A DNA stretch of 64,000 nucleotides, from the sequence record NC_025447.1. One strand, 5' to 3'. Position numbers and translations under genes: made by a program. Positions 11,479 to 37,704 of the stretch are shown here, in pieces; positions within the stretch are counted from its first letter, which is position 1; each line of letters begins with the position of its first letter. The notes beneath the pieces were generated by a model that was not told where the DNA came from, searched no databases, and saw only the letters and a list, made by a program, of their open reading frames with translations. This DNA is from Escherichia phage 121Q.

Positions 11479-13586
<2,108 letters not shown>

Positions 13587-14150: not shown

Positions 14151-14153
14151 CAC

Positions 14154-14696: not shown

Positions 14697-14709
14697 GGAG
14701 AATCAACAC

Positions 14710-22762: not shown

Positions 22763-23691
22763 TGAAACAACTACAAGAACTATATCAAAAAATTCTAGAT
22801 GAAGGCGTAGAAAGCGTTGACCGTACTGGTGTTGGAACAATCAAACTTATCGGTCAACAAATGCGTTTTGACCTTAAAGATGGTTTCCCAGCAGTGACGA
22901 CAAAACGTCTAGCTTGGAAAGCAATGACTTCAGAATTACTATGGTTTATTGAAGGTTCCCATGATGAGCGTCGCCTTTGTGAAATTTTGCATGGAACTCG
23001 TGATACAGAAAAGAAAACTATTTGGACAGATAATTACCTAAATCAAGGCGTTGCTCTTGGTTATACTGATGGTGAGTTAGGTCCAGTGTATGGTAAGCAA
23101 TGGCGTGAATGGGAAGATTATAAATTTAGTTCCAGTACTGAAGAAATTCAAGAATTAAAAGATAAAGGATACAAAGTTATCGATTATACTGGTTCACATG
23201 GTGTTGTTATGAAACGTACAACTGACCAATTACAAGAACTAATCAAAGGTATAAAGTCCGATCCATATGGCCGTCGCCACATTCTAAGTGCATGGAACGT
23301 TGGTGAGCTTGATGATATGACGTTACCACCTTGTCATAGCTTTGTGCAATTTTGTGTAGTGCAAGGAAAACTAAGCTGTATTCTGCATCAACGCTCCGCT
23401 GATCTATTTTTAGGAGTTCCATTTAATATCAGTAGTTACTCACTACTAACTCATATGATTGCACAAATTACTGGTTTAGATGTTGGTGAATTTATTTGGA
23501 ATGGTGGTGATTGTCACATTTATAAAAACCACGTTGAACAAGTAAAAGAACAACTACAGCGAAAACCTCGTGAATTACCTGAATTGTGGCTTGATCCTAC
23601 AATTACTAATATTGAAGATTTCACTATGGATTCTTTTAAATTAGTGAATTACAACCCAATGCCAACAATTAAAGCACCTATGGCTGTATAA
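22762..23691 (+). CDS. td: thymidylate synthase (ThyA type, T4 td-like), uninterrupted
   Basis: DRTGVGT, KRLAWKA, catalytic LPPCH, QRSADLFLGVPFNISSYSLLTHMIA, GGDCHIYKNHVEQ; matches T4 td from memory. Confidence 0.9.
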   Translation: MKQLQELYQKILDEGVESVDRTGVGTIKLIGQQMRFDLKDGFPAVTTKRLAWKAMTSELLWFIEGSHDERRLCEILHGTRDTEKKTIWTDNYLNQGVALGYTDGELGPVYGKQWREWEDYKFSSSTEEIQELKDKGYKVIDYTGSHGVVMKRTTDQLQELIKGIKSDPYGRRHILSAWNVGELDDMTLPPCHSFVQFCVVQGKLSCILHQRSADLFLGVPFNISSYSLLTHMIAQITGLDVGEFIWNGGDCHIYKNHVEQVKEQLQRKPRELPELWLDPTITNIEDFTMDSFKLVNYNPMPTIKAPMAV

Positions 23692-23726
23692 ACGAAAAGG
23701 GAGAACATCAGTTCTCCCTTTTTTAT
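23690..23726. terminator. bidirectional terminator between convergent td and fibre genes
   Basis: AAGGGAGAAC-atca-GTTCTCCCTT flanked by A-run and T-run. Confidence 0.7.
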
Positions 23727-25690
23727 TATCTAATTGTTACCAATGTTCTTCCGTCGAAACGTACATCAGGAGTTGAAGGTATACTAAACACTACGTTAGT
23801 GCCGTTAAACGTAACGCTATCGACCTCAACACGAGTATAGACACCAGGACTAACCTGTTCCTGTATCTCTGCTGTGACGATGTTTGAGGCTGTTACAGTA
23901 AGGGTGTAGTAGTTACCACTTAATACCCAAGATGAAATTGTAAAAGCATCGGTTCTCACTGAACCTGAACCAATTGGAACCCATTGACCTTGAACTTTTT
24001 GCATTGAAGTACGCTCGGTATTGGAGTATGCAATCATACCATCAACGCCAACAGAGTTATCAATAGTAGCTAGTACTGGTAATTGGATACCATATCTATT
24101 AAAACGTGTTCTTATAGTTCCATTATCATAGATACTTACATCAGCATAATTACCCATTGATAGTTTTAAATCAGAACTAACTAATTGGATTGTACTTTGA
24201 TTAGTAGTACTTTCTAATGTAATTATACCATTAGCTAATAGATTTATATTTTTAAATTTATTAGTTGTTCCATTGAAATTAGTGTTTGCTGTAAACGTAC
24301 TAACTCCATTAACTGTAATTGTATCAGATGCAGCATCGCCTAATGTAGTATTACCTTGAATGTTCAAATTACCACTAGCAGTGATATTACTAGCTGATGT
24401 ATCACCAGTCAATGTACTTGTACCATCAACCACAATATTACCATGAAACGCACTTTCACCATTTTTAAATTCAACTTGTACTTTATTCATTGAACTAAAT
24501 GAAATAATATTACTACTAGCACTTAGTCCAACATTAGTATTGGTTGCATTATCAAATCTTAGTACTGGGGTTGATGCTGGGGTTGAAGTTGTTTGGTATA
24601 ATGTTAATGTTGAATTATTAATTCTAATACGTTCAGTTCCAGCAGTACTGAAACCAATTGCATCATCTGCTGGATGAAACATACCAGTATTAGCGTCTGA
24701 CCATTTTGCAGGATCATTACCTGGGTTATTGGTTGGATCAAATGGATTGTTATTAAATGTCAATGCTGGTGCTGCTGCACTACCATAGACCACACCAAAA
24801 CGCCCTGAGCCGCTTGTTCCATCATTATACATGGAATCACCAGTTCTACGTAAACACTCAATCACAACGTTATCTATGGATGTTTGAACGGTCCCTGCGT
24901 TTGTCCTAAATTGACGATGATTTGCAATCATTACAGTATTGTCATATAATACTGAAGCAGCGGAAATGCTTGTTCTTGACTGGCGTAGACGTATGTTTTT
25001 ATCTTCAGTTATAATAATCCAATCACCATCTGATAGTGCGGTTTGGTTCATTGGAACACCTGAAGCAAATGGTTTGGTTAAGTCAGCATCTGTTGCTAAA
25101 TTTTTAAGACCATCATGACCAGTACTAGGAATAGATGCAGGAATAATTCTAGCGAAAGCGTATGTTACTAGTTTAGCACCAGATATATTTGGATTAGAGT
25201 CAACATAATATAAAATTTCAATCCAATTACCTTGTCCAGTTGGATTTGTAGGTGTAAATGTAACAGGACTTGTTTGTGGATTATTTGCTTCATAATGGGC
25301 TTGTGCGGCATCCATAATACCACGAACAACATAATAATCACCATTTAGTGATGCTGCTGGTGCTGGTAGTGGTGTTTGTGCTAAAGGTGGATCAATATCA
25401 TCTGGGATAGGATTGTATGTACCAACAAACTGTAAACCACTAGTTACTGAATCTGGTAATTGGGAAGTAAGAAGTTTACCATTTGCATCTAAGTTTGCAA
25501 AGCGGCGATATGCCATAGTACCATCTTCAAAATCCAGAACACCTTCAAATGATTTCCATTCCTTATTGTATCTAATCATCCCTGATCTTATTACATCAGC
25601 GGTTTCTTTTGATGGTGCTTTCGGTAACTCTAAAAAAGATTTACTATCAATAATTACACCACCATCACCTCTAATTCGATTTATACTCAT
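23726..25690 (-). CDS. tail fibre protein
   Basis: 654 aa, S/T/N/G-rich strand repeats after a distinct N-terminal domain; late-promoter-like box and RBS upstream. Confidence 0.6.
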   Translation of the reverse strand: MSINRIRGDGGVIIDSKSFLELPKAPSKETADVIRSGMIRYNKEWKSFEGVLDFEDGTMAYRRFANLDANGKLLTSQLPDSVTSGLQFVGTYNPIPDDIDPPLAQTPLPAPAASLNGDYYVVRGIMDAAQAHYEANNPQTSPVTFTPTNPTGQGNWIEILYYVDSNPNISGAKLVTYAFARIIPASIPSTGHDGLKNLATDADLTKPFASGVPMNQTALSDGDWIIITEDKNIRLRQSRTSISAASVLYDNTVMIANHRQFRTNAGTVQTSIDNVVIECLRRTGDSMYNDGTSGSGRFGVVYGSAAAPALTFNNNPFDPTNNPGNDPAKWSDANTGMFHPADDAIGFSTAGTERIRINNSTLTLYQTTSTPASTPVLRFDNATNTNVGLSASSNIISFSSMNKVQVEFKNGESAFHGNIVVDGTSTLTGDTSASNITASGNLNIQGNTTLGDAASDTITVNGVSTFTANTNFNGTTNKFKNINLLANGIITLESTTNQSTIQLVSSDLKLSMGNYADVSIYDNGTIRTRFNRYGIQLPVLATIDNSVGVDGMIAYSNTERTSMQKVQGQWVPIGSGSVRTDAFTISSWVLSGNYYTLTVTASNIVTAEIQEQVSPGVYTRVEVDSVTFNGTNVVFSIPSTPDVRFDGRTLVTIR

Positions 25691-25710
25691 TTAAATATTT
25701 CCTCAGAATA

Positions 25711-25718
25711 GATTTATA
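25711..25718 (-). promoter_or_regulatory. late-promoter-like box TATAAATC upstream of tail fibre gene
   Basis: 7/8 match to TATAAATA, ~20 nt upstream of ATG 25690. Confidence 0.3.
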
Positions 25719-25774
25719 TGATGTATTTATTTTAGTTAAAAGAAAAGGCCAAGCATAGGCTTGACCTTAAAAAA

Positions 25775-26554
25775 TTAACGTATACGTTCAGGAATATCAA
25801 CACCTTCATATACCCAAGTTGCAGCTTGTTGTGCCTTATAAATTGCATCAGGATCTAAATCATCAACTGCATCAATTGCTGCACACTGATTGTCACATTC
25901 TGTAAACAATTGCTCAATCATAGCAAAGGCTCCAGTGTATAGTTGTGTCATTTCAGTAGCAGATAATTTTACAATTGCGTCATCAAGAAAAATAGAAACA
26001 CTTTCAGAACCTGAAGTGACTTGTGTATAGTAATTAAGAAGCATTTGACGACCAGACATATCAGTACTGTAACGATGACCATTGAACATATAACCAGAAT
26101 TCATACGATTTGTACGTTCTGATATAGTTCTTGCTTTTAAATCAACTTTAACATCTGCTATTGGCATATCAATATAATGATATGTTTTAAGAACAGTTAG
26201 TGCTTTATATTCTTCGGTAGCGTCTTCTAAAAATTCAACAATAGGTTGATTTTCATCTTTTAATTTAATAAACTCCAACGGTTGTTCAATAGCATTAACA
26301 TTTCCAACATTTTTATACACTAACCACCAAAAACCTTCTTCTTTTCTAACAGCATCATTAGGTTCTACTGGGGAACCATCTTTACTTGAAATACCATAAA
26401 GAGTTCTAATATCACTATAAAGATAACGATAGGTTTGTGGATCTTCTGGTGTTGCACCAGGACGTTCTTTAAGTCCTTTTACACCAATTGGATTGGAAAT
26501 AATGTTTCCCAATTCATAATTTTCTTTTGAATTTCCTTTCACATATGTGAACAT
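25775..26554 (-). CDS. hypothetical protein in fibre locus (possible fibre accessory/assembly protein)
   Basis: ORF with GAGGTAG RBS; context only. Confidence 0.45.
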   Translation of the reverse strand: MFTYVKGNSKENYELGNIISNPIGVKGLKERPGATPEDPQTYRYLYSDIRTLYGISSKDGSPVEPNDAVRKEEGFWWLVYKNVGNVNAIEQPLEFIKLKDENQPIVEFLEDATEEYKALTVLKTYHYIDMPIADVKVDLKARTISERTNRMNSGYMFNGHRYSTDMSGRQMLLNYYTQVTSGSESVSIFLDDAIVKLSATEMTQLYTGAFAMIEQLFTECDNQCAAIDAVDDLDPDAIYKAQQAATWVYEGVDIPERIR

Positions 26555-26618
26555 ATAACTACCTCACTTGTTATGATGGTGTCACCCAAAATGAGTGACA
26601 CCTTTATTATTATAATTA

Positions 26619-29600
26619 TTAAGCAGTACGTTGTGCAATAAACATATCTGTTACTGGACTCACACCGTCATAAATGACTTGGTAGATAGTTACAGAGTTT
26701 GCAGTTTTGTTCAGTGTGCCATCAACAACCGCATAAGTACCATCAGTAGTAAAGTTTCTATTACCTGTTGCATCTTGTTTCACATAAATGTATACTGAAG
26801 ATGCTTTACCACCACCGATTAGACCAGTGATTGGTGCTAGAGTGGTATCTTGATCTAGAGTGATAAAGTATACGTTGCTAGTACCGTCTGGGGTCCAAGT
26901 ACCAGTTGGTGCGATAACAGAAGAAGTTACTTGATTAGGAATAACATCATATTTTTTAGTAGTTACTGTTGTAGTAGTTAGGTCAGCATTAGTAGTTGTT
27001 AATTGACCAGTTACAGTTACATCTTTATCAAATACTGCATTTTCTTTGAAAGAAGATGTTGCATTGACAGTTAATGTATCAGCAGCAGCGTCACCTAAAA
27101 CAACACTACCATTTGCAGTCATTAAACCAGTAACAGTTAAAGTACCACCGATTGTTGCTGCTCCAGTAACAGATGCACTAGCAAGTGTTGCTGCACCAGA
27201 AGTAGTAATGGTAGTTACTGAAGTTGCTGCTAGGGTTGCAGTACCTGTTGCAGAAATATCACCACCAACAGTTAGGTTACCAGAAGTAATTCCAACGGTT
27301 CCAGTAATGTTAGCACCACTTGACATTGTTACTGCACCACCAAATGAACCAGTAGTAGTTACTTCAAGGGTGTTCCCTTTTAGTAGACCAGTTGCAGTAA
27401 TACTTGTACCTGCGGTAATACTAGTACCAGCAGCAACACTGTTGGTTGCAGTTAATGATTTAACAGCCACGTCAGAGTTTGCTTGGTTTAGTGTTGCGTT
27501 AAGTAGACCAGTTACTGTAAAGTTACCGTTGTTAACTACGTTACCATTGATTGTTAAGTTGTTGTTTTGTGAACCAACATCACCAATAGTTGCTGATTTG
27601 GAAATCAACTCTGCACCAGAAGTAATATTACCCGCTGCACTAATAGTGTCCGCCGCAACAACTGCATAAGGTTCAATTGTTTGACCACTAACGTCAATAT
27701 CAGCGTTGATACCACCATCTACACGCAAGGAGCCAGCAATGTAAGTATTAGGGAAAATCTGAACTGTCTCTGGTTGATCGCCAATTTTAGTACCGATAAT
27801 AACATCAGCACCAGTTTTAACTGCACCAGAGGTTGTTAGAGAACCTAAAGTTGTAGCACCAGTTACACCTAATGTACCACCAATTGTTGCGTTATTAGTA
27901 ACTGCTAACGCAGCACCTTCACCATTAAGAGCGATTGATGGAGCAGATACTGCACCAGTTACGCCTAATGTGCCACCAATTGTTGCGTTGCCATCTGAAT
28001 GTAGAGTTGTAGCTACAGAAAGACTGTTAGCAACTACATCAGTACTAGCTAAATCCAATGCACCTGGGGTTAATGTACCAGTAATGTTAACATTATTACC
28101 AAAGGTCGCTGCACCAGTCACATCTAGTGTAGTACTAAATGTACCAGATGTTGCAGAGATTGCACCTGAATCTAGTGATCCAACAGTTGCTTTACCAGTT
28201 ACACCTAAAGTTCCACCAACAGTTCCATTTGTGGTTACATCCAATGTACCAGTACTTAGTTCTTGTGCGGTTACCTTACCGGATGCAGTAACAGTTGAAG
28301 TGGAAACACCACCAGTTAGAGTACTAGCACCAGTAACACTTAATGTGGTTGCCGCAGTTACGCTATTCACACTAAGATCAGCACCGGATAAGTCCAAACC
28401 ACCTTCAGGAACAAATACACCCTTAACAGTTAGTTTTTGTACTGTACTATCACCTGTTACATCCAATGTAGAAGCAGTTAAACCACCATTCATACTTGCT
28501 GCACCAGTAACACCTAGTGTAGTGGTTACAGTAGCACTATTAAGTGTTGAGCTACCAGAAATATTAGCACTAGAAGCAGTAATAGTTCCAGAATCAACTT
28601 GTATACCACCAGCAACAACCTGAATTCCACCAGCATTAACTGTTAGTTTACCAGCAGTATTCAATGTATTTGAAACTGTTGTTGCACCAGTTAAAGTTGT
28701 AGTGCCAGTTACACCTAAGTTACCAGAAATAGATGGACTACCTGTAATGTTACCAGTAGTTAGTATCAAATCAGTACCTACGGTAGTGGAGCCAGTACTT
28801 TCTAGTGTTACACCGACGATGTTTGCAGAACTTAGGTTAATAGTACCATCAACAGTTAAGTTACCTTGAACGGTTGCATCACCTAGAGAAGTTAATGTCT
28901 TCACAGACACATCAGTTGTGCTAAGATCAATAACACCCGCAGTTAGTGTTCCAGATACTGCTAAATTACCAGTAATCGCGGTATTTTTAGTAATGGATAC
29001 ATTTTCTGCCGCTGAAGTAATAGAACCAACAGTAAGTACACCACCAACAGTTGCGTTATTAGTTACATTTAGAGCAGTTCCAACACCAGATAGTGTTGCT
29101 GACCCACCAGTAATTGCACCTGAGATTGAAGCTGTTGCTGCTGAAACATCACCAGAAACTACTGCATTTGTTGCATTTAGAGCAGACACTGTAACTTCAG
29201 TACTTTGAACTTTAGGTAGAACGTTGATACCTTCTGCACTACTAACTGTAATAATACCAGTACTTGTTAGAGATTTAACAGATACATCAGCACCACTTAA
29301 ATCAACTGTACCAGAAACAACAAGATCTCCACCAATATTTGCTCCAGCGGTAGTAGTAATGGATTTTGCACTTACATCAGTTGTGCTCAAATCAATTGCA
29401 CCTGGTGTTACTGTACCAGAAACTGTTAGGTCACCAGTAATAGATGTATTATTGGAAATAGATACACCATCAACGTTACTAATTGTTGGGGTTTCTACAG
29501 AAACTGCTTTAACTTTACCTGAAGAAGTTACGTCAGCTACGGTAGATGCACCAGTAACATTCAAATTAGTAATATTTGCAGTTGTTGAACCAAGGGTTGC

Positions 29601-32144
29601 AATAGTTGCATCAGTACTTTGAAGTTTAGGTAGAACACTACTAATTGTGGATTCATTACTAACAATTGCACCAGTACTAGTTAAAGATTTGACAGTAACA
29701 TCAGCCGTAGTAAGATCTACTGTACCATTAACAGTTAGGTTACCACCAATAGTTGCACCAGCAGTAGTAGTAATGGATTTAGCATTAACATCAGTTGTTG
29801 CTAGATCGATAGAGCCTGGAATAACTGCACCAGTAACAGTTAGGTCACCAGTTACATTTGTATTATTGGAAATAGTGACACCACTTGCATTTGAAATGGT
29901 TGGGGTAACCAACGATGCAGTTGTAGTTTCACCAGTTACAGTTAAAGTTGACCCAACTAGAACAGATGAGCTTGAGTAAATTGTACCCAAATTAGCAGAT
30001 CCGGTAACAGTTATATCATCAGCATTAACAGTAGTTGCCGTTATGGTAGTACTATTAAGTACTGGAAGTACGTTAGCATTAACAAGATCATTACTTTTAA
30101 CAATACCAGAAGTAGTTAATGATTTAACATTAAGGTCGGCTGCTGATAAATCAAAAGAGCCTTGAACTACTAAATCACCACCAATAGTTGCACCAGCAGT
30201 AGTAGTGATTGATTTAGCATTAATATCGGTAGTGCTCAAGTCTAGAGAACCAACAGTTAAGCTACCAGTAATATCAACATTTTCTGTAAAGTTAGTATTA
30301 CCACTAATAGTTGGTGCAGTCAGAGTTGTTGCACTAATATTAGTACCGTTAATTGTTTGCCCACTTACAGTTCCACTCGCAGTGATAGTAGGGGCCGTTA
30401 CTTCAGTAGATGCACTAATTGTTGGTGCAGATACAGAAGTTGTACCAGTAATAGAACCAGAACTTACTGAACCAGCGGATAATGCACCAGAAAGAGTTGC
30501 AGTTGTACCAGCAATATCACCAGTAACAGTTAGTTTAGCACCCACGGTAGTGTTACCAGTACTTTCAAGTGTTGCACCTTTAATATTTGCTGCCGCGACA
30601 ACAGAATTAGGTGTTAGATCCTGCCCACTAACATCAACAGTTAGTCCAGTTACTGTTCCAGTAAATTCAACATCATTAAGAATTGCTTTACCACCAACTT
30701 GTAGGAATGGTGTACCTGGAGCTTGTGTTTCGTTACCAGTAATAGTTAGGTAATCTAGTTTGTTTAGACCGTTACCAGTAATACCATAAGTGGAAAGAGA
30801 AGCGTTACCGAAAGTTGCTGTTTTAAGAACGTTCAATGTAGAAGGAGAAACGACTTCTGATTGAACTTCGTTAGGTAGAATAACTGTTGGGCGTTGACCT
30901 GGTGCAGTATATCCAAAACCTAGTTTCACTGCCGCATCTTGACTATTTTGACCTAAGCTGATAGCTTTAAAGGATGCAGTACTGTTATAACCAGTAATAT
31001 TAGAACCAAGAGTAACACCACCAACTAATGAAGTTACACCAGTAACGTTCAAAGATACTGCATTAATATCGTCTAGTTGGAACGTTCCACCAAGAAGACC
31101 AGAAACATTAATGTTATTAAAATTAGCAGTACCAGTACTTTCGATATTTGGAATAGTTGCAGTTCCGGTTACTTCAAAGTCAGCAACTTTAGTTTTTCCT
31201 TTTTGAACTTCTAATAGTGGTGTGTCTGGTGATTGTGTATTGTTACCAGAAACTGTTAGATAATCTAATTTGTTTAGACCATTACCAGTAATACCATAAG
31301 AAGATAATGACGCATTACCAAAAGAAGCAGAGGTCAATACTGTCAAGTTTGCAGGTGACATTAGCTCGGACTGAATTTCGTTTTGTAGAATAACAGTTGG
31401 GCGTTTACCAGGAGCAGTGTAAGGGAAGCTTAATCTGAAGGTTTGTGATTCAGAGTTAGAACCAATACGAATGTCTTTAAAAGTAGCAGTACTGTTAATA
31501 CCAGTTACGTTAGCACCGAAAGTTACTGCACCTTGTTGGTTAGATGCACCAGTAACGTTCAATGTTACTGCATTTAAGTCAGATAGATTAAACTCACCAC
31601 CAAGTGTACCACTAATTGTCACATCGTTAAATGTAGCAGTACCAGTACTACTAATATCTGTTGTACTTACATTAGTAATTTCTGCGGTATTAGCAGTAAT
31701 TTTATCAAATGCAGCAGTAGTCCCAACATCAGCAGTAATATTACCTTTAAATGCTGTTGTTTCAGCAACTTCTAAGTTTTTAACTTTAGTTGCTTGTAGA
31801 GTGGTTGTACCAGCAGTTTGTGTAAAATCAGAACCAACTGATACAGTACCGTTAAAGGTAGCGTTTGAATTAATTGTTGCTGTATCAGACCCGACAACTG
31901 CACTACCGATTGTAGTATTACCCTCAACACCAAGACCACCAGAAAGTGTTGCTTTGCCACCTACATCTAAAGTAGATGTAATGTTGGCAGTTGATGATTC
32001 AATGGCAGTAAAAGTTGCATTTGCAAAAGTTACAGTACCATTTACAGTTAGGTTATTGTTGAAAACAGCATTTCCTTTGACTAAAAGATCCTTACCAACC
32101 GTACCAGCACCAGTAATATCTAAGTCAGTTTTTATTGAGTACAT
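26619..32144 (-). CDS. large tail fibre protein (1841 aa) with internal tandem repeat arrays
   Basis: Thr/Ser/Gly/Asn-rich; two repeat families visible in protein and DNA; my hand count places the start codon 1 nt from the ORF-track value. Confidence 0.7.
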   Translation of the reverse strand: MYSIKTDLDITGAGTVGKDLLVKGNAVFNNNLTVNGTVTFANATFTAIESSTANITSTLDVGGKATLSGGLGVEGNTTIGSAVVGSDTATINSNATFNGTVSVGSDFTQTAGTTTLQATKVKNLEVAETTAFKGNITADVGTTAAFDKITANTAEITNVSTTDISSTGTATFNDVTISGTLGGEFNLSDLNAVTLNVTGASNQQGAVTFGANVTGINSTATFKDIRIGSNSESQTFRLSFPYTAPGKRPTVILQNEIQSELMSPANLTVLTSASFGNASLSSYGITGNGLNKLDYLTVSGNNTQSPDTPLLEVQKGKTKVADFEVTGTATIPNIESTGTANFNNINVSGLLGGTFQLDDINAVSLNVTGVTSLVGGVTLGSNITGYNSTASFKAISLGQNSQDAAVKLGFGYTAPGQRPTVILPNEVQSEVVSPSTLNVLKTATFGNASLSTYGITGNGLNKLDYLTITGNETQAPGTPFLQVGGKAILNDVEFTGTVTGLTVDVSGQDLTPNSVVAAANIKGATLESTGNTTVGAKLTVTGDIAGTTATLSGALSAGSVSSGSITGTTSVSAPTISASTEVTAPTITASGTVSGQTINGTNISATTLTAPTISGNTNFTENVDITGSLTVGSLDLSTTDINAKSITTTAGATIGGDLVVQGSFDLSAADLNVKSLTTSGIVKSNDLVNANVLPVLNSTTITATTVNADDITVTGSANLGTIYSSSSVLVGSTLTVTGETTTASLVTPTISNASGVTISNNTNVTGDLTVTGAVIPGSIDLATTDVNAKSITTTAGATIGGNLTVNGTVDLTTADVTVKSLTSTGAIVSNESTISSVLPKLQSTDATIATLGSTTANITNLNVTGASTVADVTSSGKVKAVSVETPTISNVDGVSISNNTSITGDLTVSGTVTPGAIDLSTTDVSAKSITTTAGANIGGDLVVSGTVDLSGADVSVKSLTSTGIITVSSAEGINVLPKVQSTEVTVSALNATNAVVSGDVSAATASISGAITGGSATLSGVGTALNVTNNATVGGVLTVGSITSAAENVSITKNTAITGNLAVSGTLTAGVIDLSTTDVSVKTLTSLGDATVQGNLTVDGTINLSSANIVGVTLESTGSTTVGTDLILTTGNITGSPSISGNLGVTGTTTLTGATTVSNTLNTAGKLTVNAGGIQVVAGGIQVDSGTITASSANISGSSTLNSATVTTTLGVTGAASMNGGLTASTLDVTGDSTVQKLTVKGVFVPEGGLDLSGADLSVNSVTAATTLSVTGASTLTGGVSTSTVTASGKVTAQELSTGTLDVTTNGTVGGTLGVTGKATVGSLDSGAISATSGTFSTTLDVTGAATFGNNVNITGTLTPGALDLASTDVVANSLSVATTLHSDGNATIGGTLGVTGAVSAPSIALNGEGAALAVTNNATIGGTLGVTGATTLGSLTTSGAVKTGADVIIGTKIGDQPETVQIFPNTYIAGSLRVDGGINADIDVSGQTIEPYAVVAADTISAAGNITSGAELISKSATIGDVGSQNNNLTINGNVVNNGNFTVTGLLNATLNQANSDVAVKSLTATNSVAAGTSITAGTSITATGLLKGNTLEVTTTGSFGGAVTMSSGANITGTVGITSGNLTVGGDISATGTATLAATSVTTITTSGAATLASASVTGAATIGGTLTVTGLMTANGSVVLGDAAADTLTVNATSSFKENAVFDKDVTVTGQLTTTNADLTTTTVTTKKYDVIPNQVTSSVIAPTGTWTPDGTSNVYFITLDQDTTLAPITGLIGGGKASSVYIYVKQDATGNRNFTTDGTYAVVDGTLNKTANSVTIYQVIYDGVSPVTDMFIAQRTA
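28821..30269 (-). repeat. tandem array (~3.5 x ~415 bp, ~138 aa) inside large fibre gene
   Basis: Repeating IDL(S/A)TTDV.AKSITTTAGA.IGG.L.V.G.VDL..ADV.VKSLTSTG units from residue ~626 to ~1108. Confidence 0.55.
30624..31646 (-). repeat. tandem duplication (2 x ~510 bp, ~170 aa) inside large fibre gene
   Basis: Protein units 167-336 and 337-507 align throughout (F.YTAPG.RPTVIL.NE.QSE..SP..L.VL..A.FGNASLS.YGITGNGLNKLDYLT). Confidence 0.55.
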
Positions 32145-32240
32145 TTATACCCTCCATTATAACCTTGTTAATATGTATATATTTAGTTTTATTATGCTGT
32201 TATCCAACAATTAATATGTTATTTGACAAAAGCAAATATA

Positions 32241-32281
32241 ATAAAAACCAGACTTATTTAGAACAAGTCTGGTTAATTTTT
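32241..32281. terminator. terminator between two minus-strand fibre genes (U-tracts on both strands)
   Basis: AACCAGACTT-9 nt loop-AAGTCTGGTT flanked by AAAAA and TTTTTTT. Confidence 0.55.
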
Positions 32282-33178
32282 TTACTTACCAGAGATGACA
32301 ATCTTACCACTGAAAGAAATATCAGAAGTGAAGATTACATCACCAGTACTACTAATTTGTGTATCAGTCACTACCAATTCAAATGGAGATGACGAAACAC
32401 TCCCAGGTGTTTTATTTGCATAAATTGAAATATACAAATTATCTGGTGTTTGATTGTGTTCAGATGCAGGAATAGTGATTGTAAAATCACCATCACTAGA
32501 AACCCAATCTGCTTGGTTTACCAATTTACTATAAGGTACTGTCATTGTTGTTGCTCCTATAATGTTTACTTTAACACTTGCATAATCTGTGATTTGACCA
32601 ATCACATCAATTGTTATATCCCCAATACCACTAACTGTTACTGTGGTTTGGAATACTGATTCCAATGCAACATTACCTGGGTCACCTTGTAGTTGGATCA
32701 TAATATCAGAACCTCTACCATGAACTGATTCTGGTAGTGTGTAAGTATAATGATCAGTAGTATCTGGCACTAATGTAAATGCAGAAACAGGAACTATTTC
32801 AGTAGTTACATATGAGCTATCAGTCCCAGGTGAGCTACCTTTAAATGGTTTCCAAATACCAAGATCTTTAATATAAATTTGAAGAACATTAGTACTATCA
32901 ACCAAAAAGTAAACGTCACCATCTAGACCGATCGAATCGGATGGTGCTGTTGTTCCACGTAAGATACCAGAACTACCACCACCACTGTGTGCGTTTAAAT
33001 ATCCCAATGTAACCAAGTGTGTGTTTGCAGTTGGTTCACCTGCTGAAATTGGAAGAAGTTGTGTTCCTGAGTAGTTTTGAATTTGCACAACACTACCATT
33101 TGTGGTAATCTGTGCACCATTCTTCCCAAGAATGAAGGACTTCTTCATGGTTCCTTCTAAATTAGAAAAAACTGCCAT
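32282..33178 (-). CDS. receptor-binding tail spike/fibre protein sharing N-terminal anchor with 33195-35336
   Basis: N-terminus MAVFSNLEGTMKKSFILGKNGAQ nearly identical in pattern to MAVFSNFEGTMQPKFILGKKGAS of the next gene. Confidence 0.6.
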   Translation of the reverse strand: MAVFSNLEGTMKKSFILGKNGAQITTNGSVVQIQNYSGTQLLPISAGEPTANTHLVTLGYLNAHSGGGSSGILRGTTAPSDSIGLDGDVYFLVDSTNVLQIYIKDLGIWKPFKGSSPGTDSSYVTTEIVPVSAFTLVPDTTDHYTYTLPESVHGRGSDIMIQLQGDPGNVALESVFQTTVTVSGIGDITIDVIGQITDYASVKVNIIGATTMTVPYSKLVNQADWVSSDGDFTITIPASEHNQTPDNLYISIYANKTPGSVSSSPFELVVTDTQISSTGDVIFTSDISFSGKIVISGK

Positions 33179-33194
33179 TTTAATATAATCTCCT

Positions 33195-35336
33195 TTATGG
33201 TAGGGTTATGTAAGTTACGGGTTGGGCAGCTTTTAATGCTGCACCAGCGGCAGTTGCTGTTATGATAGGATCTGCAATATCAATTCTATATACGTTGTTT
33301 ACAACATACACTGCACGAGTTATATACGTTCTCAAATCACCACCATTTTCACCAGCACCGGATATAATGATCTCAGTACCAGCAGCTTTTGCATATTGGT
33401 TTTCACCCCATGACACACCCAATGCTTCTATGTATGTTTGTCCTGCTACCGTTTGTCTAATTGTGTCATATTTTCCGAAAAAAGAACCACCAACAGTTAC
33501 AATATATTTTCCACCCGATTGTTTATGAATAATCGTGCCTTCAGAGAAATAGCGTCCCCCAGGAAAAGTATCGTATGGAATATAATATTGCTCAACTACA
33601 GGTATCAGTACTGGGCCACGGTGACCTGTACCATCGATTGCAGTTGTAACTTTAAAGTTATTAGATGATTGGTCTATTCTGTCTACATACATTTTAGAAA
33701 AACTATATTTTGAAACATTACAATCATCTTGAACAACACAGTTAGTCCAATTAGTATAAGTATATTTAGAGCGAGTATAGATACCACCACCTTCGCCTTC
33801 GGTAGAGAGGTGTTGACCAATTACATCTAATTCTTTAGTTCTAATATCACTAAATTTAGATGATGATGGCAAACCACGCCAAAGGATTTTAGAACAAGTG
33901 ATATTGCTCAATTCTGTATTATTTAACCAATTATCAGAACCGGAAGTATAAACAAGTATAGAAGACTCTGGAATATAGAGATTAGAAATTTTAAAGTTTC
34001 TAGGTGGTCCAGCAAAACGACCAGAAGTTACACCCCAGTTTATTGAAACCATTCTATTTGTGATAGAAGGATCATTAAGCAAATGACCAGTCAACCCATC
34101 AATAATGAATTCTTTCGAACCATAAGTTATAACACCAGCAGTGGTTAATCCAGTACCAACAGAAACTAAAGATGATGGATAAACTTCATTATTAAGTATT
34201 TTAAAGTCCATTCCTAATTCAACGTGTATACATTGTCTAACATTATATAGTCTGTTATTTTTAATAACAAAGTTTCTGACATATTGTGTATCTGGTGCAT
34301 CTAAACCATAAGGACCAGAACCAGCAACGCCAATACCAATGCCCCAGTTTGAAAGTGGGATTGGAGCGTTAGAACCATCAACGTTTTCAATTACGTTTCC
34401 TTCAATCACAAAACCATCAGGATAATGTGAGTTAATTACGTTTAGTTCAATTGCATCACCATAGATATCATGAATATGGTTATATGAATATCTACCAACC
34501 TTCATTTTCTCACCAGTACCTTGTTGAAGAACACCATACTTACATTGGGTCATTTCATTAAAGCAAAAATCTATTGTTCCTGGTTGTGTCATACCTTGCA
34601 TTAAAAATGCAGCAGTACTTGTGATGTTTATAAATTTATTAAAATAAAACTTACCATCTCCACCGAAGAATTTTAAATAACATCCAGTAAGTGTTGCAAA
34701 TTGTATTTGGGAATTAATAACAGATACCATAGTACCACCGTTACCAGTAATAGTTCCCCCAAACCAAGTTACATCTTCTAGGTATATTGCAGTTTTGATA
34801 CGGTAATTACCACCAGCCTGAATTTGGATTTTATTTTCTTTAGCATAAGCAGCACATAAATTTACAGCAGCAGTGTCATCAGTTTCGCCATCACCTTTAG
34901 CACCAAATTCTTCTGGTGTTATATAAAACTGGGCCTGTTGAACTGTACCTCCAGTAATAAGTCCGATGAAATCACCACCATTTTTACTGGATAGAACTTT
35001 TTTATTAATGTATAATGATTTTACCCATGTACCATTACTTTTTGCAAAAATATCAACAATACCATCTTCATCAATTTGAAAATACGTATTATTGTTCTTT
35101 CCTACATCATCGGTAGGGGGTACAACACCAAATAATGCATTAGGGTTATCTTCAAGATATTTTACGTTAACTGCTGAATTAGGGTCAGATGAAGTTCCTA
35201 CCTTCAGTGGTAGGAACTGTTCTCCTAGATAATCTTTTATAGAAACTGAATCATTGATAAAATTTATTGAAGCACCTTTTTTCCCCAATATGAATTTGGG
35301 CTGCATAGTTCCTTCAAAATTAGAAAATACTGCCAT
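33195..35336 (-). CDS. tailspike with pectate-lyase-superfamily beta-helix (putative polysaccharide depolymerase)
   Basis: Shared N-terminal anchor, then EEFGAKGDGETDDTAAV, the hallmark entry motif of pectate-lyase-like depolymerase domains. Confidence 0.7.
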   Translation of the reverse strand: MAVFSNFEGTMQPKFILGKKGASINFINDSVSIKDYLGEQFLPLKVGTSSDPNSAVNVKYLEDNPNALFGVVPPTDDVGKNNNTYFQIDEDGIVDIFAKSNGTWVKSLYINKKVLSSKNGGDFIGLITGGTVQQAQFYITPEEFGAKGDGETDDTAAVNLCAAYAKENKIQIQAGGNYRIKTAIYLEDVTWFGGTITGNGGTMVSVINSQIQFATLTGCYLKFFGGDGKFYFNKFINITSTAAFLMQGMTQPGTIDFCFNEMTQCKYGVLQQGTGEKMKVGRYSYNHIHDIYGDAIELNVINSHYPDGFVIEGNVIENVDGSNAPIPLSNWGIGIGVAGSGPYGLDAPDTQYVRNFVIKNNRLYNVRQCIHVELGMDFKILNNEVYPSSLVSVGTGLTTAGVITYGSKEFIIDGLTGHLLNDPSITNRMVSINWGVTSGRFAGPPRNFKISNLYIPESSILVYTSGSDNWLNNTELSNITCSKILWRGLPSSSKFSDIRTKELDVIGQHLSTEGEGGGIYTRSKYTYTNWTNCVVQDDCNVSKYSFSKMYVDRIDQSSNNFKVTTAIDGTGHRGPVLIPVVEQYYIPYDTFPGGRYFSEGTIIHKQSGGKYIVTVGGSFFGKYDTIRQTVAGQTYIEALGVSWGENQYAKAAGTEIIISGAGENGGDLRTYITRAVYVVNNVYRIDIADPIITATAAGAALKAAQPVTYITLP

Positions 35337-35350
35337 TATGACATCCTCCC

Positions 35351-36502
35351 TTAAATATTATCTTGAATCGGTTGGATAGGAGCTTGCCATGAAAGAGTAC
35401 AAATAATTTCCATTTTTCCATAAGGACTGTTGTTAACAGAATCGTTGAATACACATGAAATAATTTCATCAACATCGGATGCTGCATGATTAGTTTCATT
35501 AACAATAAAACGCATCTGACGATTGATATCAAAGTAGGAAGTTGGTGCAATTACCGTCCCGCCAATATCTTCTTGTGCTTCACCACCAAAACGTACAAAC
35601 ATATCAGTTACTGGAAGAGAATAAGGTTGTATAACGTTTACATCAATATTAGAAACTACATATCCAGCAGGACATGTACCAATAACTAATAGTGCGTTAG
35701 TCCATGAGCTATCTATGGTATTTCTAATAGAAATTGTATCTTTACCTGGTGCACCTGGTTCGCCTTGTATACCTTGAATACCTTGCTGGCCTTCTTTACC
35801 ACGGAATAGAATACCCTCACTCCACTCTTTTGAAGGAGGGGTAGTTGTAGTTACTTCATCAACATAATATAGTTTTCCATCAGTGTTGTTATAAAAACAA
35901 TAATCAACTGGAAGATTTTCAATACTTGGAAATTGATCACCACTGCTATCAATATGGAAACGACCACGCGGACCTTGTTCACCACGGAAAGGTATACCAT
36001 CACTCCAAGTAGCAGTTACACTTTGATAGAAATAAAGTTTACCATCTTGAGTATTATAAAATGTATAGTTATTAAAAAGACCAGTTGTTGGGAAAGTAGT
36101 TCCAGCACTATCAATGTGGAACGGCTTACCCGCTTCACCCGTATCACCTTTACCAAACTCAACACTAATCCATGTACTTGTCGGATCTTGTGCATCATTT
36201 GATTTAAAGTATAGAGTACTGGTATTGTTAGCCAAGCTTAAGTAGCACCACCCAAGTGGTTCACCAACTTTAAATTGTTCGGAAGGAATTTCAAAACCAA
36301 TCTCATTAGGATAAAAGTTTTTACCATTCTCGCCATTCTGTCCTACAACAAGACCTAAATCTTGAATTGTGTTATCTGCATAGGTTACAATTAAATGCCC
36401 AGCACCATTAATAACTAGACTTTTGATGCCGGAGTTATTACATGAACCATTAAATGAAATTGTCATAATATTTCCCTTGTATGAGTTAATGTCATATACC
36501 AA
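35351..36502 (-). CDS. fibre-like protein with collagen-like Gly-X-Y segments and a duplicated module
   Basis: GQNGENGKN, GEQGPRG, GKEGQQGIQGIQGEPGAPGKD; duplicated (R/P)FHIDS(A/S)G...FYN..DGKLY(F/Y) units. Confidence 0.55.
   Translation of the reverse strand: MVYDINSYKGNIMTISFNGSCNNSGIKSLVINGAGHLIVTYADNTIQDLGLVVGQNGENGKNFYPNEIGFEIPSEQFKVGEPLGWCYLSLANNTSTLYFKSNDAQDPTSTWISVEFGKGDTGEAGKPFHIDSAGTTFPTTGLFNNYTFYNTQDGKLYFYQSVTATWSDGIPFRGEQGPRGRFHIDSSGDQFPSIENLPVDYCFYNNTDGKLYYVDEVTTTTPPSKEWSEGILFRGKEGQQGIQGIQGEPGAPGKDTISIRNTIDSSWTNALLVIGTCPAGYVVSNIDVNVIQPYSLPVTDMFVRFGGEAQEDIGGTVIAPTSYFDINRQMRFIVNETNHAASDVDEIISCVFNDSVNNSPYGKMEIICTLSWQAPIQPIQDNI
35738..36154 (-). repeat. collagen-like Gly-X-Y segments flanking a duplicated ~50-aa module
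   Basis: Residues ~117-255 of the 383-aa protein. Confidence 0.4.
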
Positions 36503-36576
36503 TATTTATCAGTACAAAATACATTTCGTTATCATTAATAAATAAATGAAAGTTCACTACTAAAAGGGCTTAAACA

Positions 36577-37074
36577 ATGGCATTAAGATCAAAAGACTTT
36601 CTCTTCAGAAGAAAAACAAAAGATGGTTCATGGCAAGATTTTCCTGAATCTGATAGCTGGTATCCAGCTAACTTGGATTATCACTGGAATGAACAAACGT
36701 TACCACTAGCAAGTGGTGGCTACTATGGCTGTACTACAGGTTTACATACGATTTCATTTACACTACGTAATTTTATTGGTAGAATTTATGTGTTAGCTAC
36801 ATTAGCTAGTAATCCTACTGATGATGATTGGTTTCCAATTAAATTCACTGAAAGTTGTAATTATTATCTTGAATTTACTGATATGGTTATTTTAAATCCA
36901 AATGGTGGGGATTTAATTAGACAACAAGGAACTACCGGAACATTTGCTGAAACAGTAACTGGTAATTTTACTTACCTTAAAGTTGGTATAGACCGTGATT
37001 ATATTAGTAAGTATCCATCAGATGTCCAAAAAAGTTTAGCTGGGAAGTTAGAACAAATTTTAATTAACTACTAA
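36577..37074 (+). CDS. hypothetical protein
   Basis: ORF with RBS, diverging from fibre genes. Confidence 0.45.
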   Translation: MALRSKDFLFRRKTKDGSWQDFPESDSWYPANLDYHWNEQTLPLASGGYYGCTTGLHTISFTLRNFIGRIYVLATLASNPTDDDWFPIKFTESCNYYLEFTDMVILNPNGGDLIRQQGTTGTFAETVTGNFTYLKVGIDRDYISKYPSDVQKSLAGKLEQILINY

Positions 37075-37083
37075 GGATTAGAA

Positions 37084-37692
37084 ATGAAATTAGAAACAGA
37101 ACAACCAAAACTATTTGTTAAAGGTCATGTCCTAATTACTGACGTTACTGATCCATCAAATCAAAAAATCGTTTTAGATAAATCTAACGCTATTCACCCT
37201 GAAAATATGAGTACTGCCATTGCTAATGCGTTAGCATATAATCAAGACAGTACTGGTATTCCTATTGGTTCTATTAGCGAGATGCGTTTTGGTAATGGTG
37301 GTACAGTAGTTTTAAGTACTGGGCGTGTTACTTATAAAAAACCACGTGTTACATCATTTGGTGGTTTGTATTCACAAACATATTTGAAAAAAATCAACCC
37401 AAGAATTACGGCTGGTATCGATTCACAATATAATAATATTACGACTGTTCATATACCAGGTCAGTCCTATACTGATATTGTATGTATTTGTACTTTAGGC
37501 TTAGGTGAACCATCAGATCAAGGTGTGAGTTCAGGGACAAGCATGGACGGAACATATGTGTTTGATGAATTGGGATTATACACCGATGGTGATAGTGGTA
37601 TTCCTTTAACACATATTATTTTCCACCCAGTTGAAAAAAGTGCAAACCGTGTTTTGCAAATTAAATACACTGTGCGTGTACAACTACAATAA
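37084..37692 (+). CDS. hypothetical protein
   Basis: ORF with AAGGA RBS. Confidence 0.45.
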   Translation: MKLETEQPKLFVKGHVLITDVTDPSNQKIVLDKSNAIHPENMSTAIANALAYNQDSTGIPIGSISEMRFGNGGTVVLSTGRVTYKKPRVTSFGGLYSQTYLKKINPRITAGIDSQYNNITTVHIPGQSYTDIVCICTLGLGEPSDQGVSSGTSMDGTYVFDELGLYTDGDSGIPLTHIIFHPVEKSANRVLQIKYTVRVQLQ

Positions 37693-37704
37693 TGGGGTCA
37701 TATA

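What the first reader, a model, noticed from the sequence alone, without database searches (positions are those of the whole stretch)
23726..36502. Large receptor-binding locus with at least five fibre/spike genes
Six consecutive minus-strand genes (654, 259, 1841, 298, 713 and 383 aa) are fibre or spike-like or fibre-associated, each with its own RBS and some with late-promoter-like boxes and terminators. This many distinct receptor-binding proteins in 13 kb is typical of jumbo or broad-host-range myoviruses with branched fibres and suggests several receptors or capsule types.
Basis: partly seen in the sequence, partly recalled or inferred. Interest (0 to 1): 0.5.

Follow-up and report, generated by a model that had tools for sequence, protein, structure and literature searches.

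The report
Jumbo coliphage G17 tail-fibre gene module
This stretch is the already-sequenced tail-fibre gene cluster of the jumbo E. coli phage G17: it holds one very long fibre with its chaperone, one slime-digesting (colanic acid) spike and three conserved structural fibre parts, not five or six independent receptor-binding proteins.

Summary
The six minus-strand genes are real and sit exactly where stated. The window is 100% identical to Escherichia phage vB_EcoM_G17, an Asteriusvirus and RaK2-like jumbo myovirus. They form three late transcription units, each with a conserved TAAATA box and a terminator: [371-713-298], [1841-259] and [654]. The "383-aa" gene really starts at the ATG at 36466, giving 371 aa.

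Only two products look like direct host-surface effectors. One is the 1841-aa beta-helical long fibre. The other is a 713-aa chimeric tailspike, built from a jumbo-phage N-terminal anchor plus a phi92 gp150-type colanidase. The 259-aa protein is a DUF4376 fibre chaperone. The 371-, 298- and 654-aa proteins have fixed lengths and are 45-70% identical in phages of nine host genera, so they are probably conserved structural or adaptor fibre parts.

Virion proteomics of relatives detects the five core orthologues: all five in CBB, four in fENko-Kae01, two in phAPEC6. The colanidase was not detected in phAPEC6, the only colanidase-encoding relative whose proteome I could read.

The branched, multi-receptor, broad-host-range reading is not supported. 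There is only one depolymerase, no RaK2-type spike cluster, and Sharanji, with an identical locus, infects only K-12 strains. This is known biology of modest interest. The gene for the tail "hairs" is still unassigned.

The parts
23694..23723 (.). Bidirectional intrinsic terminator between thyA (+) and g654 (-)
   Evidence: A 13-bp stem followed by a T-run. Annotated as an ARNOLD terminator in the G17 record.
23726..25690 (-). g654: conserved virion protein. It has an N-terminal body (1-~350), a beta-helix-like repeat zone (357-530, nt 24101-24622) and a C-terminal Ig-like beta-sandwich module (535-654, nt 23729-24088). It is its own transcription unit.
   Evidence: phrog_14293. Present in all 70 RaK2-like records. 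The orthologue CBB_224 gave 22 peptides in virions. The repeat zone resembles fibre repeats and expands or contracts between phages. AF2 pLDDT is 71, with only generic Ig-like fold hits. The C-terminal module is homologous to g298 residues 78-184.
25724..25729 (-). TAAATA late-promoter-like box, 39 nt upstream of g654
   Evidence: Conserved at -37 to -41 in CBB, fENko-Kae01, RaK2 and JNE01.
25745..25768 (-). Intrinsic terminator ending the g1841-g259 unit
25775..26554 (-). g259: DUF4376 tail-fibre chaperone or cap (DUF4376 at residues 135-236, nt 25847-26152), co-transcribed with the long fibre
   Evidence: Pfam PF14301 scores 34.5 bits against a cutoff of 25. No TAAATA box of its own in any relative. 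DUF4376 proteins are fibre chaperones. The orthologues are in CBB and fENko-Kae01 virions.
26619..32144 (-). g1841: long tail fibre. It has N-terminal repeats, a tandem duplication of a ~170-aa module (residues 141-480, nt 30705-31724), a ~1250-aa shaft rich in T/G/S/V/A with beta-helix-like repeats, and a C-terminal terminal domain (residues 1740-1841, nt 26622-26927).
   Evidence: phrog_4549 tail fiber. It matches the phiTE long tail fibre, PDB 9CUY chain g. Repeat map. The 100% identical phAPEC6 gp256 is in virions. It is the most variable gene of the locus within the genus.
32180..32185 (-). TAAATA box, 41 nt upstream of g1841
32246..32274 (-). Intrinsic terminator ending the g371-g713-g298 unit
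32282..33178 (-). g298: conserved virion protein made of an N-terminal anchor (residues 1-112, nt 32843-33178) plus a beta-sandwich distal part
   Evidence: phrog_10468. The anchor is 38% identical to the g713 N-terminus. RaK2 keeps only this anchor, as the 115-aa ORF061w. The family has a constant length of 284-309 aa. The orthologues are in CBB and fENko-Kae01 virions.
33195..35336 (-). g713: chimeric colanidase tailspike, made of the jumbo-phage anchor (residues 1-104, nt 35025-35336) plus a phi92 gp150-type beta-helix enzyme (residues 96-712, nt 33201-35051)
   Evidence: E = 1.8e-235 to PDB 6E0V. phrog_6117. Module distribution. Anchor partners.
It has four G-X-Y runs (the longest at residues 223-243, nt 35738-35800), three ~45-aa repeat modules and a C-terminal jelly-roll head (residues 245-371, nt 35354-35734).
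   Evidence: phrog_13565. G-X-Y runs. AF2 pLDDT is 81.6. Jelly-roll fold hits. Family length is 353-387 aa in all relatives. phAPEC6 gp253 gave 14 peptides and 65.6% coverage.
36503..36508 (-). TAAATA box, 42 nt upstream of the g371 ATG. It abuts the TTG at 36502, so the TTG start is unlikely.
   Evidence: Conserved at -38 to -44 in all five relatives examined (CBB, fENko-Kae01, RaK2, JNE01, EcMJ).

Best explanation
The interval is the conserved tail-fibre module of RaK2-like jumbo myoviruses, here in its Asteriusvirus form. It is expressed late as three units.

Unit 1 encodes g371, g713 and g298. g371 is a collagen-like trimeric short fibre with a jelly-roll head. g713 and g298 share a ~105-aa N-terminal docking module and therefore probably occupy the same kind of site on the virion. 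g298 is the resident, clade-wide protein. g713 is an Asteriusvirus-specific addition in which the docking module was fused to a colanidase beta-helix of the phi92 gp150 type.

Unit 2 encodes the 1841-aa beta-helical long fibre and its DUF4376 chaperone. The chaperone folds the fibre tip and probably stays on it as a cap.

Unit 3 encodes g654, a second conserved fibre-like protein whose distal module is related to that of g298.

Proposed mechanism (inferred):
1. The long flexible fibre makes the first contact. In the near-identical SHEFM2K and the syntenic fENko-Kae01, the receptor for that contact is the flagellum.
2. The colanidase clears the colanic-acid slime.
3. The conserved short components engage a conserved envelope feature and couple binding to the baseplate.

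Shown: gene structure, homologies, synteny, and virion presence of the orthologues. Inferred: positions in the virion, the receptors, and the order of events.
For: - Identity and synteny.
- Transcription units: terminators, TAAATA boxes enriched and positionally conserved.
- Colanidase: E = 1.8e-235 to phi92 gp150. Biochemical colanic-acid hydrolysis by gp150 is cited in PMC13450770.
- Chimera: residues 96-712 are shared with phi92-like and other phages. Residues 1-104 occur only in jumbo-phage g298-type proteins.
- Anchor as docking module: its first ~70 residues head proteins carrying beta-helix, Peptidase_S74, BNR-sialidase-like and CBM5/12 modules. Two such spikes lie on one contig. RaK2 retains the anchor alone.
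- Chaperone: DUF4376 scores above the Pfam cutoff, the gene lies directly downstream of the fibre with no promoter of its own, and the literature describes DUF4376 chaperones.
- Long fibre: homology to the phiTE LTF, and phAPEC6 gp256 is in virions.
- Conserved trio.
- Virion MS of orthologues.
- Flagellum as receptor in relatives.
Against: - The colanidase was not found in the phAPEC6 virion proteome, although it offers 29 suitable tryptic peptides. It is deleted or split in JP4, EcMJ and JNE01.
- g654, g259 and g298 were also not detected in phAPEC6, and RaK2 gp062 (the g371 orthologue) was not detected in RaK2.
- No structure places any of these proteins in the virion.
- The g654 model matched only generic Ig-like folds.
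- The best domain matches for the g371 head are capsid cement proteins, so it may not sit on the baseplate.
- The tip of the long fibre is the most conserved part of the protein within the genus, and more than 300 phages share it. It therefore says nothing about the receptor.
- The SHEFM2K flagellotropy paper could not be read.
Confidence: 0.7

Rival explanations
1. One reading: five or six independent receptor-binding proteins form a branched adsorption organelle, as in RaK2, phiKp24 or CBA120. This would give several receptors or capsule types and a broad host range.
For: Six fibre-associated genes lie in 12.8 kb. The shared N-terminal anchor on g298 and g713 resembles the docking modules of branched systems. 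Related Asteriusviruses add a second long fibre.
Against: - Only one depolymerase is present.
- One gene is a chaperone.
- Three proteins are conserved across nine host genera.
- No RaK2 gp526/529-type TSP motif is present.
- No T4 gp10-like domain was detected.
- RaK2's ramified spikes are encoded elsewhere.
- phAPEC6 has short, unbranched baseplate fibres.
- Sharanji, with an identical locus, has a narrow host range.
Confidence: 0.1
2. The 1841-aa protein is not a baseplate fibre. It is the ~120 nm 'hair' or whisker seen in rings on the tail sheath of phAPEC6 and CBB, capped by the DUF4376 protein, and it entangles flagella.
For: - The hair genes are unassigned.
- The baseplate fibres are short, about 29 nm in CBB, while the hairs measure 119 +/- 10 nm and end in a tiny globule.
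- Scaling from the phiTE LTF (793 aa, predicted 51 nm) gives about 100 nm for CBB_226 (1553 aa) and about 119 nm for g1841. This is my arithmetic.
- RaK2 lacks this gene and the RaK2 paper, where I searched it, mentions no tail hairs.
- SHEFM2K and fENko-Kae01 are flagellotropic.
Against: - GAP32 has the orthologue, yet hairs were not reported for it. The CBB authors looked for hair genes among proteins absent from GAP32.
- No hairs are mentioned for fENko-Kae01.
- The fibre could instead be baseplate-anchored and folded along the sheath.
- The length scaling rests on a prediction.
Confidence: 0.25
3. The colanidase is not a virion spike. It is a soluble late enzyme released at lysis to strip colanic acid or biofilm from neighbouring cells.
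For: It is absent from the phAPEC6 virion proteome despite 29 detectable peptides. PHROG files the family under 'moron/auxiliary'. It is dispensable, being deleted or split in three lineages. The position of phi92 gp150 in the virion is itself unresolved.
Against: It carries the same N-terminal anchor as the virion protein g298, and the same anchor as other tailspikes with a beta-helix or Peptidase_S74 module. It sits inside a late structural operon between two virion proteins. Homologues are annotated as tailspikes in many phages.
Confidence: 0.15
4. g371 is a decoration fibre of the capsid hexamers or the tail rings, not a baseplate fibre.
For: Its jelly-roll head best matches trimeric capsid cement proteins such as Pam1, KHP40 and GP4, and also ExsFA. 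The layout of a collagen-like stalk plus a jelly-roll head resembles BclA (my own knowledge). Coverage in phAPEC6 MS is very high, at 65.6%. phAPEC6 has unassigned trimeric capsid fibres.
Against: The gene lies between tail and baseplate genes and is co-transcribed with the spike genes. Jelly-roll heads are also common on receptor-binding fibres (one search lists baseplate and fibre hits). It was not detected in RaK2 virions.
Confidence: 0.2

Closest known systems
Escherichia phage vB_EcoM_G17 (MK327931) and other Asteriusviruses (121Q, PBECO4, phAPEC6, Sharanji, SHEFM2K)
   Same: The locus is 98-100% identical at the DNA level, with the same six genes in the same order.
   Different: Nothing differs, because the window is G17. 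The public annotations are poor. G17 calls all six genes hypothetical, phAPEC6 omits four intact ORFs, and the PBECO4 RefSeq record annotates opposite-strand shadow ORFs where the 5' half of the fibre gene lies.
Syntenic fibre modules of CBB/GAP32 (Mimasvirus) and fENko-Kae01
   Same: The order is thyA | 654-like | DUF4376 | long fibre | 298-like | 371-like, with 25-61% identity. The orthologues have been identified in virions by MS.
   Different: These phages have no colanidase at this site. Their long fibre is shorter, at 1553-1560 aa.
phi92 gp150 colanidase tailspike (PDB 6E0V)
   Same: Residues 96-712 of g713 align end to end (E = 1.8e-235, about 57% identity to phi92-like phages).
   Different: The N-terminal ~100 residues are replaced by the jumbo-phage anchor shared with g298. 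Virion incorporation has not been demonstrated.
phiTE and rV5-type long tail fibre (PDB 9CUY chain g)
   Same: The beta-helix-like shaft repeats and the ~100-130-aa C-terminal terminal domain are shared.
   Different: g1841 is 2.3 times longer, carries a duplicated ~170-aa module near its N-terminus, and shows no similarity to the phiTE N-terminal 'rip-chord' attachment region.
DUF4376 intermolecular fibre chaperones (Alteromonas V22 gp27, A5 gp9; Campylobacter F341_034)
   Same: The DUF4376 domain is C-terminal, and the gene lies immediately downstream of its fibre.
   Different: The orthologues here are abundant in purified virions (CBB_225 at 68% coverage), so retention looks stable rather than transient.
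Branched multi-depolymerase organelles of RaK2, PhiK64-1, phiKp24 and ViI/CBA120
   Same: These are jumbo or large myoviruses that use N-terminal docking modules to hang spikes on the virion.
   Different: Here there is one depolymerase against 10-14. No T4 gp10-like or TSP N-terminal motif was detected. RaK2's spike cluster is at another genomic site.

Membership tests
phi92 gp150-type colanidase tailspike (g713) | Full-length homology of the catalytic beta-helix to gp150 | tested here: met
   phmmer E = 1.8e-235, query residues 96-712 against chain residues 11-623 of 6E0V.
phi92 gp150-type colanidase tailspike (g713) | Pectate-lyase-like right-handed beta-helix signature | tested here: inconclusive
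   Pfam PF12708 scores 24.3 bits, below the cutoff of 27. The fold is implied only through the gp150 homology.
phi92 gp150-type colanidase tailspike (g713) | N-terminal virion-anchoring module | tested here: met
   Residues 1-104 are 38% identical to the N-terminus of virion protein g298. The same module heads other beta-helix, S74 and BNR spikes.
phi92 gp150-type colanidase tailspike (g713) | Present in the virion | tested here: inconclusive
   The identical protein is absent from the phAPEC6 proteome table despite 29 suitable peptides. No other Asteriusvirus virion proteome table could be read.
phi92 gp150-type colanidase tailspike (g713) | Hydrolyses colanic acid | not testable with these tools
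   Activity is shown only for phi92 gp150, as cited in PMC13450770.
DUF4376 tail-fibre chaperone (g259) | C-terminal DUF4376 domain above the Pfam threshold | tested here: met
   PF14301 scores 34.5 bits against a cutoff of 25, at residues 135-236.
DUF4376 tail-fibre chaperone (g259) | Gene directly downstream of, and co-transcribed with, its fibre gene | tested here: met
   The gap is 64 nt, with no TAAATA box before the gene in the window or in any relative, and the terminator comes only after g259.
DUF4376 tail-fibre chaperone (g259) | Required for fibre folding and binds the fibre tip | not testable with these tools
   Needs co-expression or pull-down experiments. Identity of g259 and of the fibre tip fall together in JNE01 (60% and 51-68%), which is weak support.
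phiTE/rV5-type long tail fibre (g1841) | Conserved C-terminal terminal domain | tested here: met
   (E = 6e-14 for the domain). The domain occurs in 339 phage records.
phiTE/rV5-type long tail fibre (g1841) | Extended beta-helical shaft | tested here: inconclusive
   T, G, S, V and A make up about 62% of residues, with pervasive degenerate repeats that align to the phiTE shaft. The protein is too long for the structure tool.
phiTE/rV5-type long tail fibre (g1841) | phiTE-type N-terminal attachment (helical bundle with the sheath initiator) | tested here: not met
   No alignment to phiTE residues 1-344.
T4 gp34 'long tail fiber proximal subunit' (the name used in the 121Q, SP27 and GAP32 records) | Sequence similarity to T4 gp34 | tested here: not met
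   No PDB hit to the gp34 structures and no Pfam hit. The name appears to be inherited by annotation transfer.
Branched multi-depolymerase adsorption organelle (RaK2, phiKp24, CBA120) | Several distinct beta-helix depolymerases | tested here: not met
   Only g713 qualifies.
Branched multi-depolymerase adsorption organelle (RaK2, phiKp24, CBA120) | Primary fibre with T4 gp10-like docking domains, or the TSP N-terminal motif | tested here: inconclusive
   The RaK2 gp526/529 motif is absent. No gp10-like hit was found by Pfam or by PDB sequence and profile searches. No HHpred-grade search was possible.
Branched multi-depolymerase adsorption organelle (RaK2, phiKp24, CBA120) | Ramified fibre morphology | tested here: not met
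   EM and cryo-EM of phAPEC6 show six short baseplate fibres plus hairs.
Collagen-like trimeric fibre with jelly-roll head (g371) | G-X-Y triplet runs | tested here: met
   Four runs are present, the longest with 7 triplets at residues 223-243. Pfam Collagen is below its cutoff.
Collagen-like trimeric fibre with jelly-roll head (g371) | C-terminal jelly-roll trimerisation head | tested here: met
   AF2 pLDDT is 85-96 for residues 245-371. Foldseek gives probability 1.00 and TM 0.5-0.63 to trimeric cement proteins, and also hits ExsFA.

The most novel reading that the evidence does not exclude
The 1841-aa fibre, capped by its virion-retained DUF4376 chaperone, is the still-unassigned ~120 nm 'hair' that rings the tail sheath of hairy jumbo myoviruses such as phAPEC6 and CBB. 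These hairs would be the flagellum-catching organelle of the Asteriusviruses. The colanidase and the conserved short fibres would then act at the cell surface.
Probability: 0.25. Interest if true: 0.55.

Novelty: already known. Interest (0 to 1): 0.3.

Why it matters
Asteriusviruses are being proposed for therapy and biocontrol, yet their adsorption apparatus is essentially unannotated. Three points matter in practice.
- Only the long fibre and the colanidase are plausible specificity determinants. The long fibre varies in length and copy number between isolates. The colanidase is often decayed.
- A ~70-aa N-terminal module is a portable docking tag for spikes, which tells engineers where to intervene.
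- The many fibre-like genes should not be read as a sign of broad host range.

The analysis also narrows the candidates for the unexplained tail hairs of these phages.

Tried and rejected
1. The apparent replacement of the left third of the locus in PBECO4 is an artefact, because the linear record ends inside the fibre gene.
2. I considered the phiTE match as evidence for flagellum binding and rejected it. The shared C-terminal domain occurs in more than 300 phages, including the rV5-like and Phapecoctavirus groups, which as far as I know are not described as flagellum-dependent.
3. The sigma-70 promoter scan was not above chance, and there is no exact T4 TATAAATA in the locus.
4. PDB sequence and profile searches for g654, g371, g298 and g259 gave nothing significant.
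6. hhalign of g298 against g371 showed no relation.
7. None of the six proteins has a paralogue elsewhere in the window.
8. The SHEFM2K flagellotropy paper (Microbiol Res 2025) is not held, so that claim is second-hand.
9. G17's own host range appears only in a figure of Korf 2019 and could not be read.

Full report
IDENTITY AND OBSERVATION

The six minus-strand ORFs exist at exactly the stated coordinates. The 12.8-kb interval is 100% identical to Escherichia phage vB_EcoM_G17 (MK327931), a 370.8-kb Asteriusvirus. It is 98-100% identical to Sharanji, SHEFM2K, phAPEC6, SP27 and slurp01. The window is the reverse complement of G17 roughly from 182.5 to 246.5 kb and covers the tail and baseplate region. 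The sheath gene lies at 6851-9514, a 3333-aa virion protein at 44583-54584, and the baseplate wedge at 54634-58095.

Five of the six genes have clear Shine-Dalgarno sequences. The TTG start of the "383-aa" ORF has none and abuts a promoter-like box. The ATG at 36466, preceded by AAGGGA, gives 371 aa as in the G17 record.

TRANSCRIPTION UNITS

Intrinsic terminators follow g298 (32274-32246), g259 (25768-25745) and g654 (bidirectional, 23694-23723). They agree with the ARNOLD features in the G17 record. Sigma-70-like sites are not above chance, and there is no exact T4 late box in the locus.

A TAAATA box, the core of the T4 late-promoter consensus, lies 39, 41 and 42 nt upstream of g654, g1841 and g371. 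It is present in 11 of 17 upstream regions of the window against 3.5 +/- 1.6 in shuffles, which is about 18-fold above the window average. The box is positionally conserved before the orthologous genes of CBB, fENko-Kae01, RaK2, JNE01 and EcMJ, and is always absent before the DUF4376 gene. The units are therefore [g371-g713-g298], [g1841-g259] and [g654].

WHAT EACH PRODUCT IS

g713 aligns over residues 96-712 with the crystallised phi92 gp150 (E = 1.8e-235). That enzyme is reported to hydrolyse colanic acid (PMC13450770). This catalytic part is shared with phi92-like phages (57%), Vequintavirinae, Phapecoctavirus and small siphoviruses annotated "tailspike colanidase". Residues 1-104 match only g298-type proteins of RaK2-like jumbo phages. 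g713 is therefore a chimera of a resident anchor and an imported enzyme.

A profile of the anchor, searched against 1.84 billion representative proteins, shows that its first ~70 residues head proteins of 705-1366 aa. These carry right-handed beta-helix, pectate-lyase plus Peptidase_S74, or BNR/sialidase-like plus CBM5/12 modules. Two such spikes lie side by side on one 120-kb contig. RaK2 keeps the anchor alone as a 115-aa gene. This supports a portable docking tag. Residues ~65-110 of the anchor are a widespread ~45-aa repeat, which is also recognisable in g371 and g654.

g1841 is a protein rich in T, G, S, V and A. It has N-terminal repeats, a tandem duplication of a ~170-aa module (residues 141-310 and 316-480, 50-66% identical), a ~1250-residue shaft of degenerate repeats, and a C-terminal domain. 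The shaft repeats and the C-terminal domain match the long tail fibre of phiTE (PDB 9CUY chain g), which is predicted to be a 51-nm beta-helix. The identical phAPEC6 gp256 is a virion protein. The C-terminal domain is shared by tail fibres in 339 phage records. It is the most conserved part of the protein within the genus, at 92-95%, whereas the centre and N-terminus drop to 47-60%. So this is not a variable receptor tip, and the phiTE match does not argue for flagellum binding.

g259 has a C-terminal DUF4376 domain above the Pfam threshold. This domain is the hallmark of intermolecular fibre chaperones that dock on the fibre tip (PMC10579305, PMC10877375). Its orthologues are nevertheless abundant in purified CBB and fENko-Kae01 virions, which suggests a retained cap.

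g371 has four G-X-Y runs, three repeat modules and a confidently modelled C-terminal jelly-roll. The jelly-roll's best domain matches are trimeric capsid cement proteins, and ExsFA is also hit.

g298 consists of the anchor plus a beta-sandwich part. Residues 78-184 are homologous to the C-terminal module of g654 (hhalign E = 5.8e-6).

g654 has a conserved N-terminal body, a fibre-like repeat zone that expands or is lost between phages, and C-terminal Ig-like domains. Fold searches gave nothing specific.

COMPARATIVE PICTURE

The order thyA | 654-like | DUF4376 | long fibre | 298-like | 371-like is conserved in CBB/GAP32 and fENko-Kae01. RaK2 has only the 654-like (shortened), anchor-only and 371-like genes at this site.

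g654 and g371 occur in all 70 RaK2-like records, from nine host genera, at 43-68% identity over their full length. The g371 and g298 families have constant lengths. This is the behaviour of structural or adaptor proteins, not of host-specific RBPs.

Variation within Asteriusvirus is concentrated in the long fibre and the colanidase:
- The long fibre is 1827-2129 aa in different isolates, and JNE01 and EcMJ carry a second paralogue.
- The colanidase has an in-frame deletion in JP4 and is split in EcMJ and JNE01.

CBB virions contain all five core orthologues (CBB_224-228). The fENko-Kae01 record marks four of five as found by LC-MS/MS. phAPEC6, whose six ORFs are intact and 98.7-100% identical to those here, yielded only gp253 (g371) and gp256 (g1841) among its 62 proteins. 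g298 has only four suitable tryptic peptides, so it is easily missed. g713 has 29, so its absence is informative. RaK2 gp062 was not detected.

INTERPRETATION

The locus is a virion fibre module, but not an array of five or six independent RBPs. There is one depolymerase, one long fibre with its chaperone, and three conserved parts. EM of phAPEC6 shows six short baseplate fibres plus unassigned hairs on the sheath and fibres on the capsid. RaK2's ramified spikes are encoded elsewhere.

Host ranges are narrow. Sharanji, with an identical locus, infects K-12 strains only. [quoted passage not shown] SHEFM2K, 99.8% identical here, is reported to be flagellotropic (primary paper not held).

My best model has three steps, all inferred. 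The long fibre makes first contact, probably with the flagellum. The colanidase clears the Rcs-induced slime. The conserved short components then engage the envelope.

OPEN POINT

The hairs on CBB measure 119 +/- 10 nm and end in a small globule, while its baseplate fibres are about 29 nm. Scaling from the phiTE LTF gives about 100-120 nm for the CBB and G17 long fibres. RaK2 lacks the gene, and the parts of the RaK2 paper I searched mention no tail hairs. The long fibre is therefore a candidate for the hair. GAP32 has the gene but no reported hairs, so I rate this reading at about 0.25.

Noticed in passing
window 22762-23691 (+): The thymidylate synthase gene abuts the fibre locus in all relatives. 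Its product was found in the virion proteomes of phAPEC6 (gp259c, 3 peptides) and fENko-Kae01 (ENKO_251). This echoes the old, disputed reports of Td in the T4 baseplate (my own knowledge). It could also be contamination.
   Followed up: no
window 27046-27669, 27970-28623, 30205-30753, 31471-32214 (+); L004 317-4993: Long plus-strand ORFs inside g1841 are shadows of the low-complexity fibre gene. The PBECO4 RefSeq record annotates such shadow ORFs (gp549-551) where the 5' half of the fibre gene lies, and the gene itself runs off the end of the linear record.
   Followed up: partly
L003 (phAPEC6 MK817115) 4004-5965, 6053-6829, 12560-13453, 13473-15611: The phAPEC6 GenBank record has no CDS for four intact ORFs (gp254, gp255, gp257, gp258; 99.5-100% identical to those in G17), although the gp numbering skips over them.
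   Followed up: yes
window-wide, e.g. upstream of 6851, 9910, 10691, 4959, 36577, 42158(-), 58864(-): TAAATA boxes lie 22-56 nt upstream of many structural genes, most often at -38 to -42. This is probably the late-promoter core of RaK2-like phages. The divergent region 36467-36576 carries one on each strand (36503-36508 on the minus strand, 36539-36544 on the plus strand).
   Followed up: partly
window 36577-38805 (+): Three plus-strand genes (165, 202 and 366 aa) are conserved next to the locus in every relative. The 202- and 366-aa products are virion proteins in phAPEC6 (gp251c, gp250c) and in CBB (CBB_230, CBB_231). They may belong to the same structural assembly.
   Followed up: partly
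window about 26576-26600 (-), between g1841 and g259: A strong hairpin (GGTGTCAC...GGTGACACC) without a T-run separates the fibre gene from the chaperone gene and is conserved in EcMJ. It could be a processing or attenuation signal that sets the fibre-to-chaperone ratio.
   Followed up: no
L005 19336-19941 (JP4); L006 14797-16939 (EcMJ); L011 15833-17975 (JNE01): The colanidase is decayed in three Asteriusvirus lineages. JP4 has an in-frame deletion of residues 152-659, and EcMJ and JNE01 each have it split into two ORFs. The splits could be sequencing errors.
   Followed up: partly
L006 8844-13764 (EcMJ); L011 9923-14809 (JNE01): A subgroup of Asteriusviruses carries a second long-fibre paralogue (1628 aa in JNE01). 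In EcMJ it is split into ORFs of 1049 and 582 aa, and the second ORF has no promoter or RBS context.
   Followed up: partly
L014 8001-10343 and 16571-18343: A 120-kb metagenomic contig from an unrelated phage encodes two different tailspikes that both begin with the same ~65-aa anchor as g298 and g713. One carries a Peptidase_S74 domain and a weak pectate-lyase-like hit; the other carries a right-handed beta-helix.
   Followed up: partly
g298 residues 65-110, g371 repeats, g654 residues 542-580: A ~45-aa motif (P..S.G.DGD.Y......LY.K..G.W) recurs up to 12 times per protein in many unrelated proteins, including collagen-like and LPXTG-anchored ones. No Pfam family was identified for it.
   Followed up: partly
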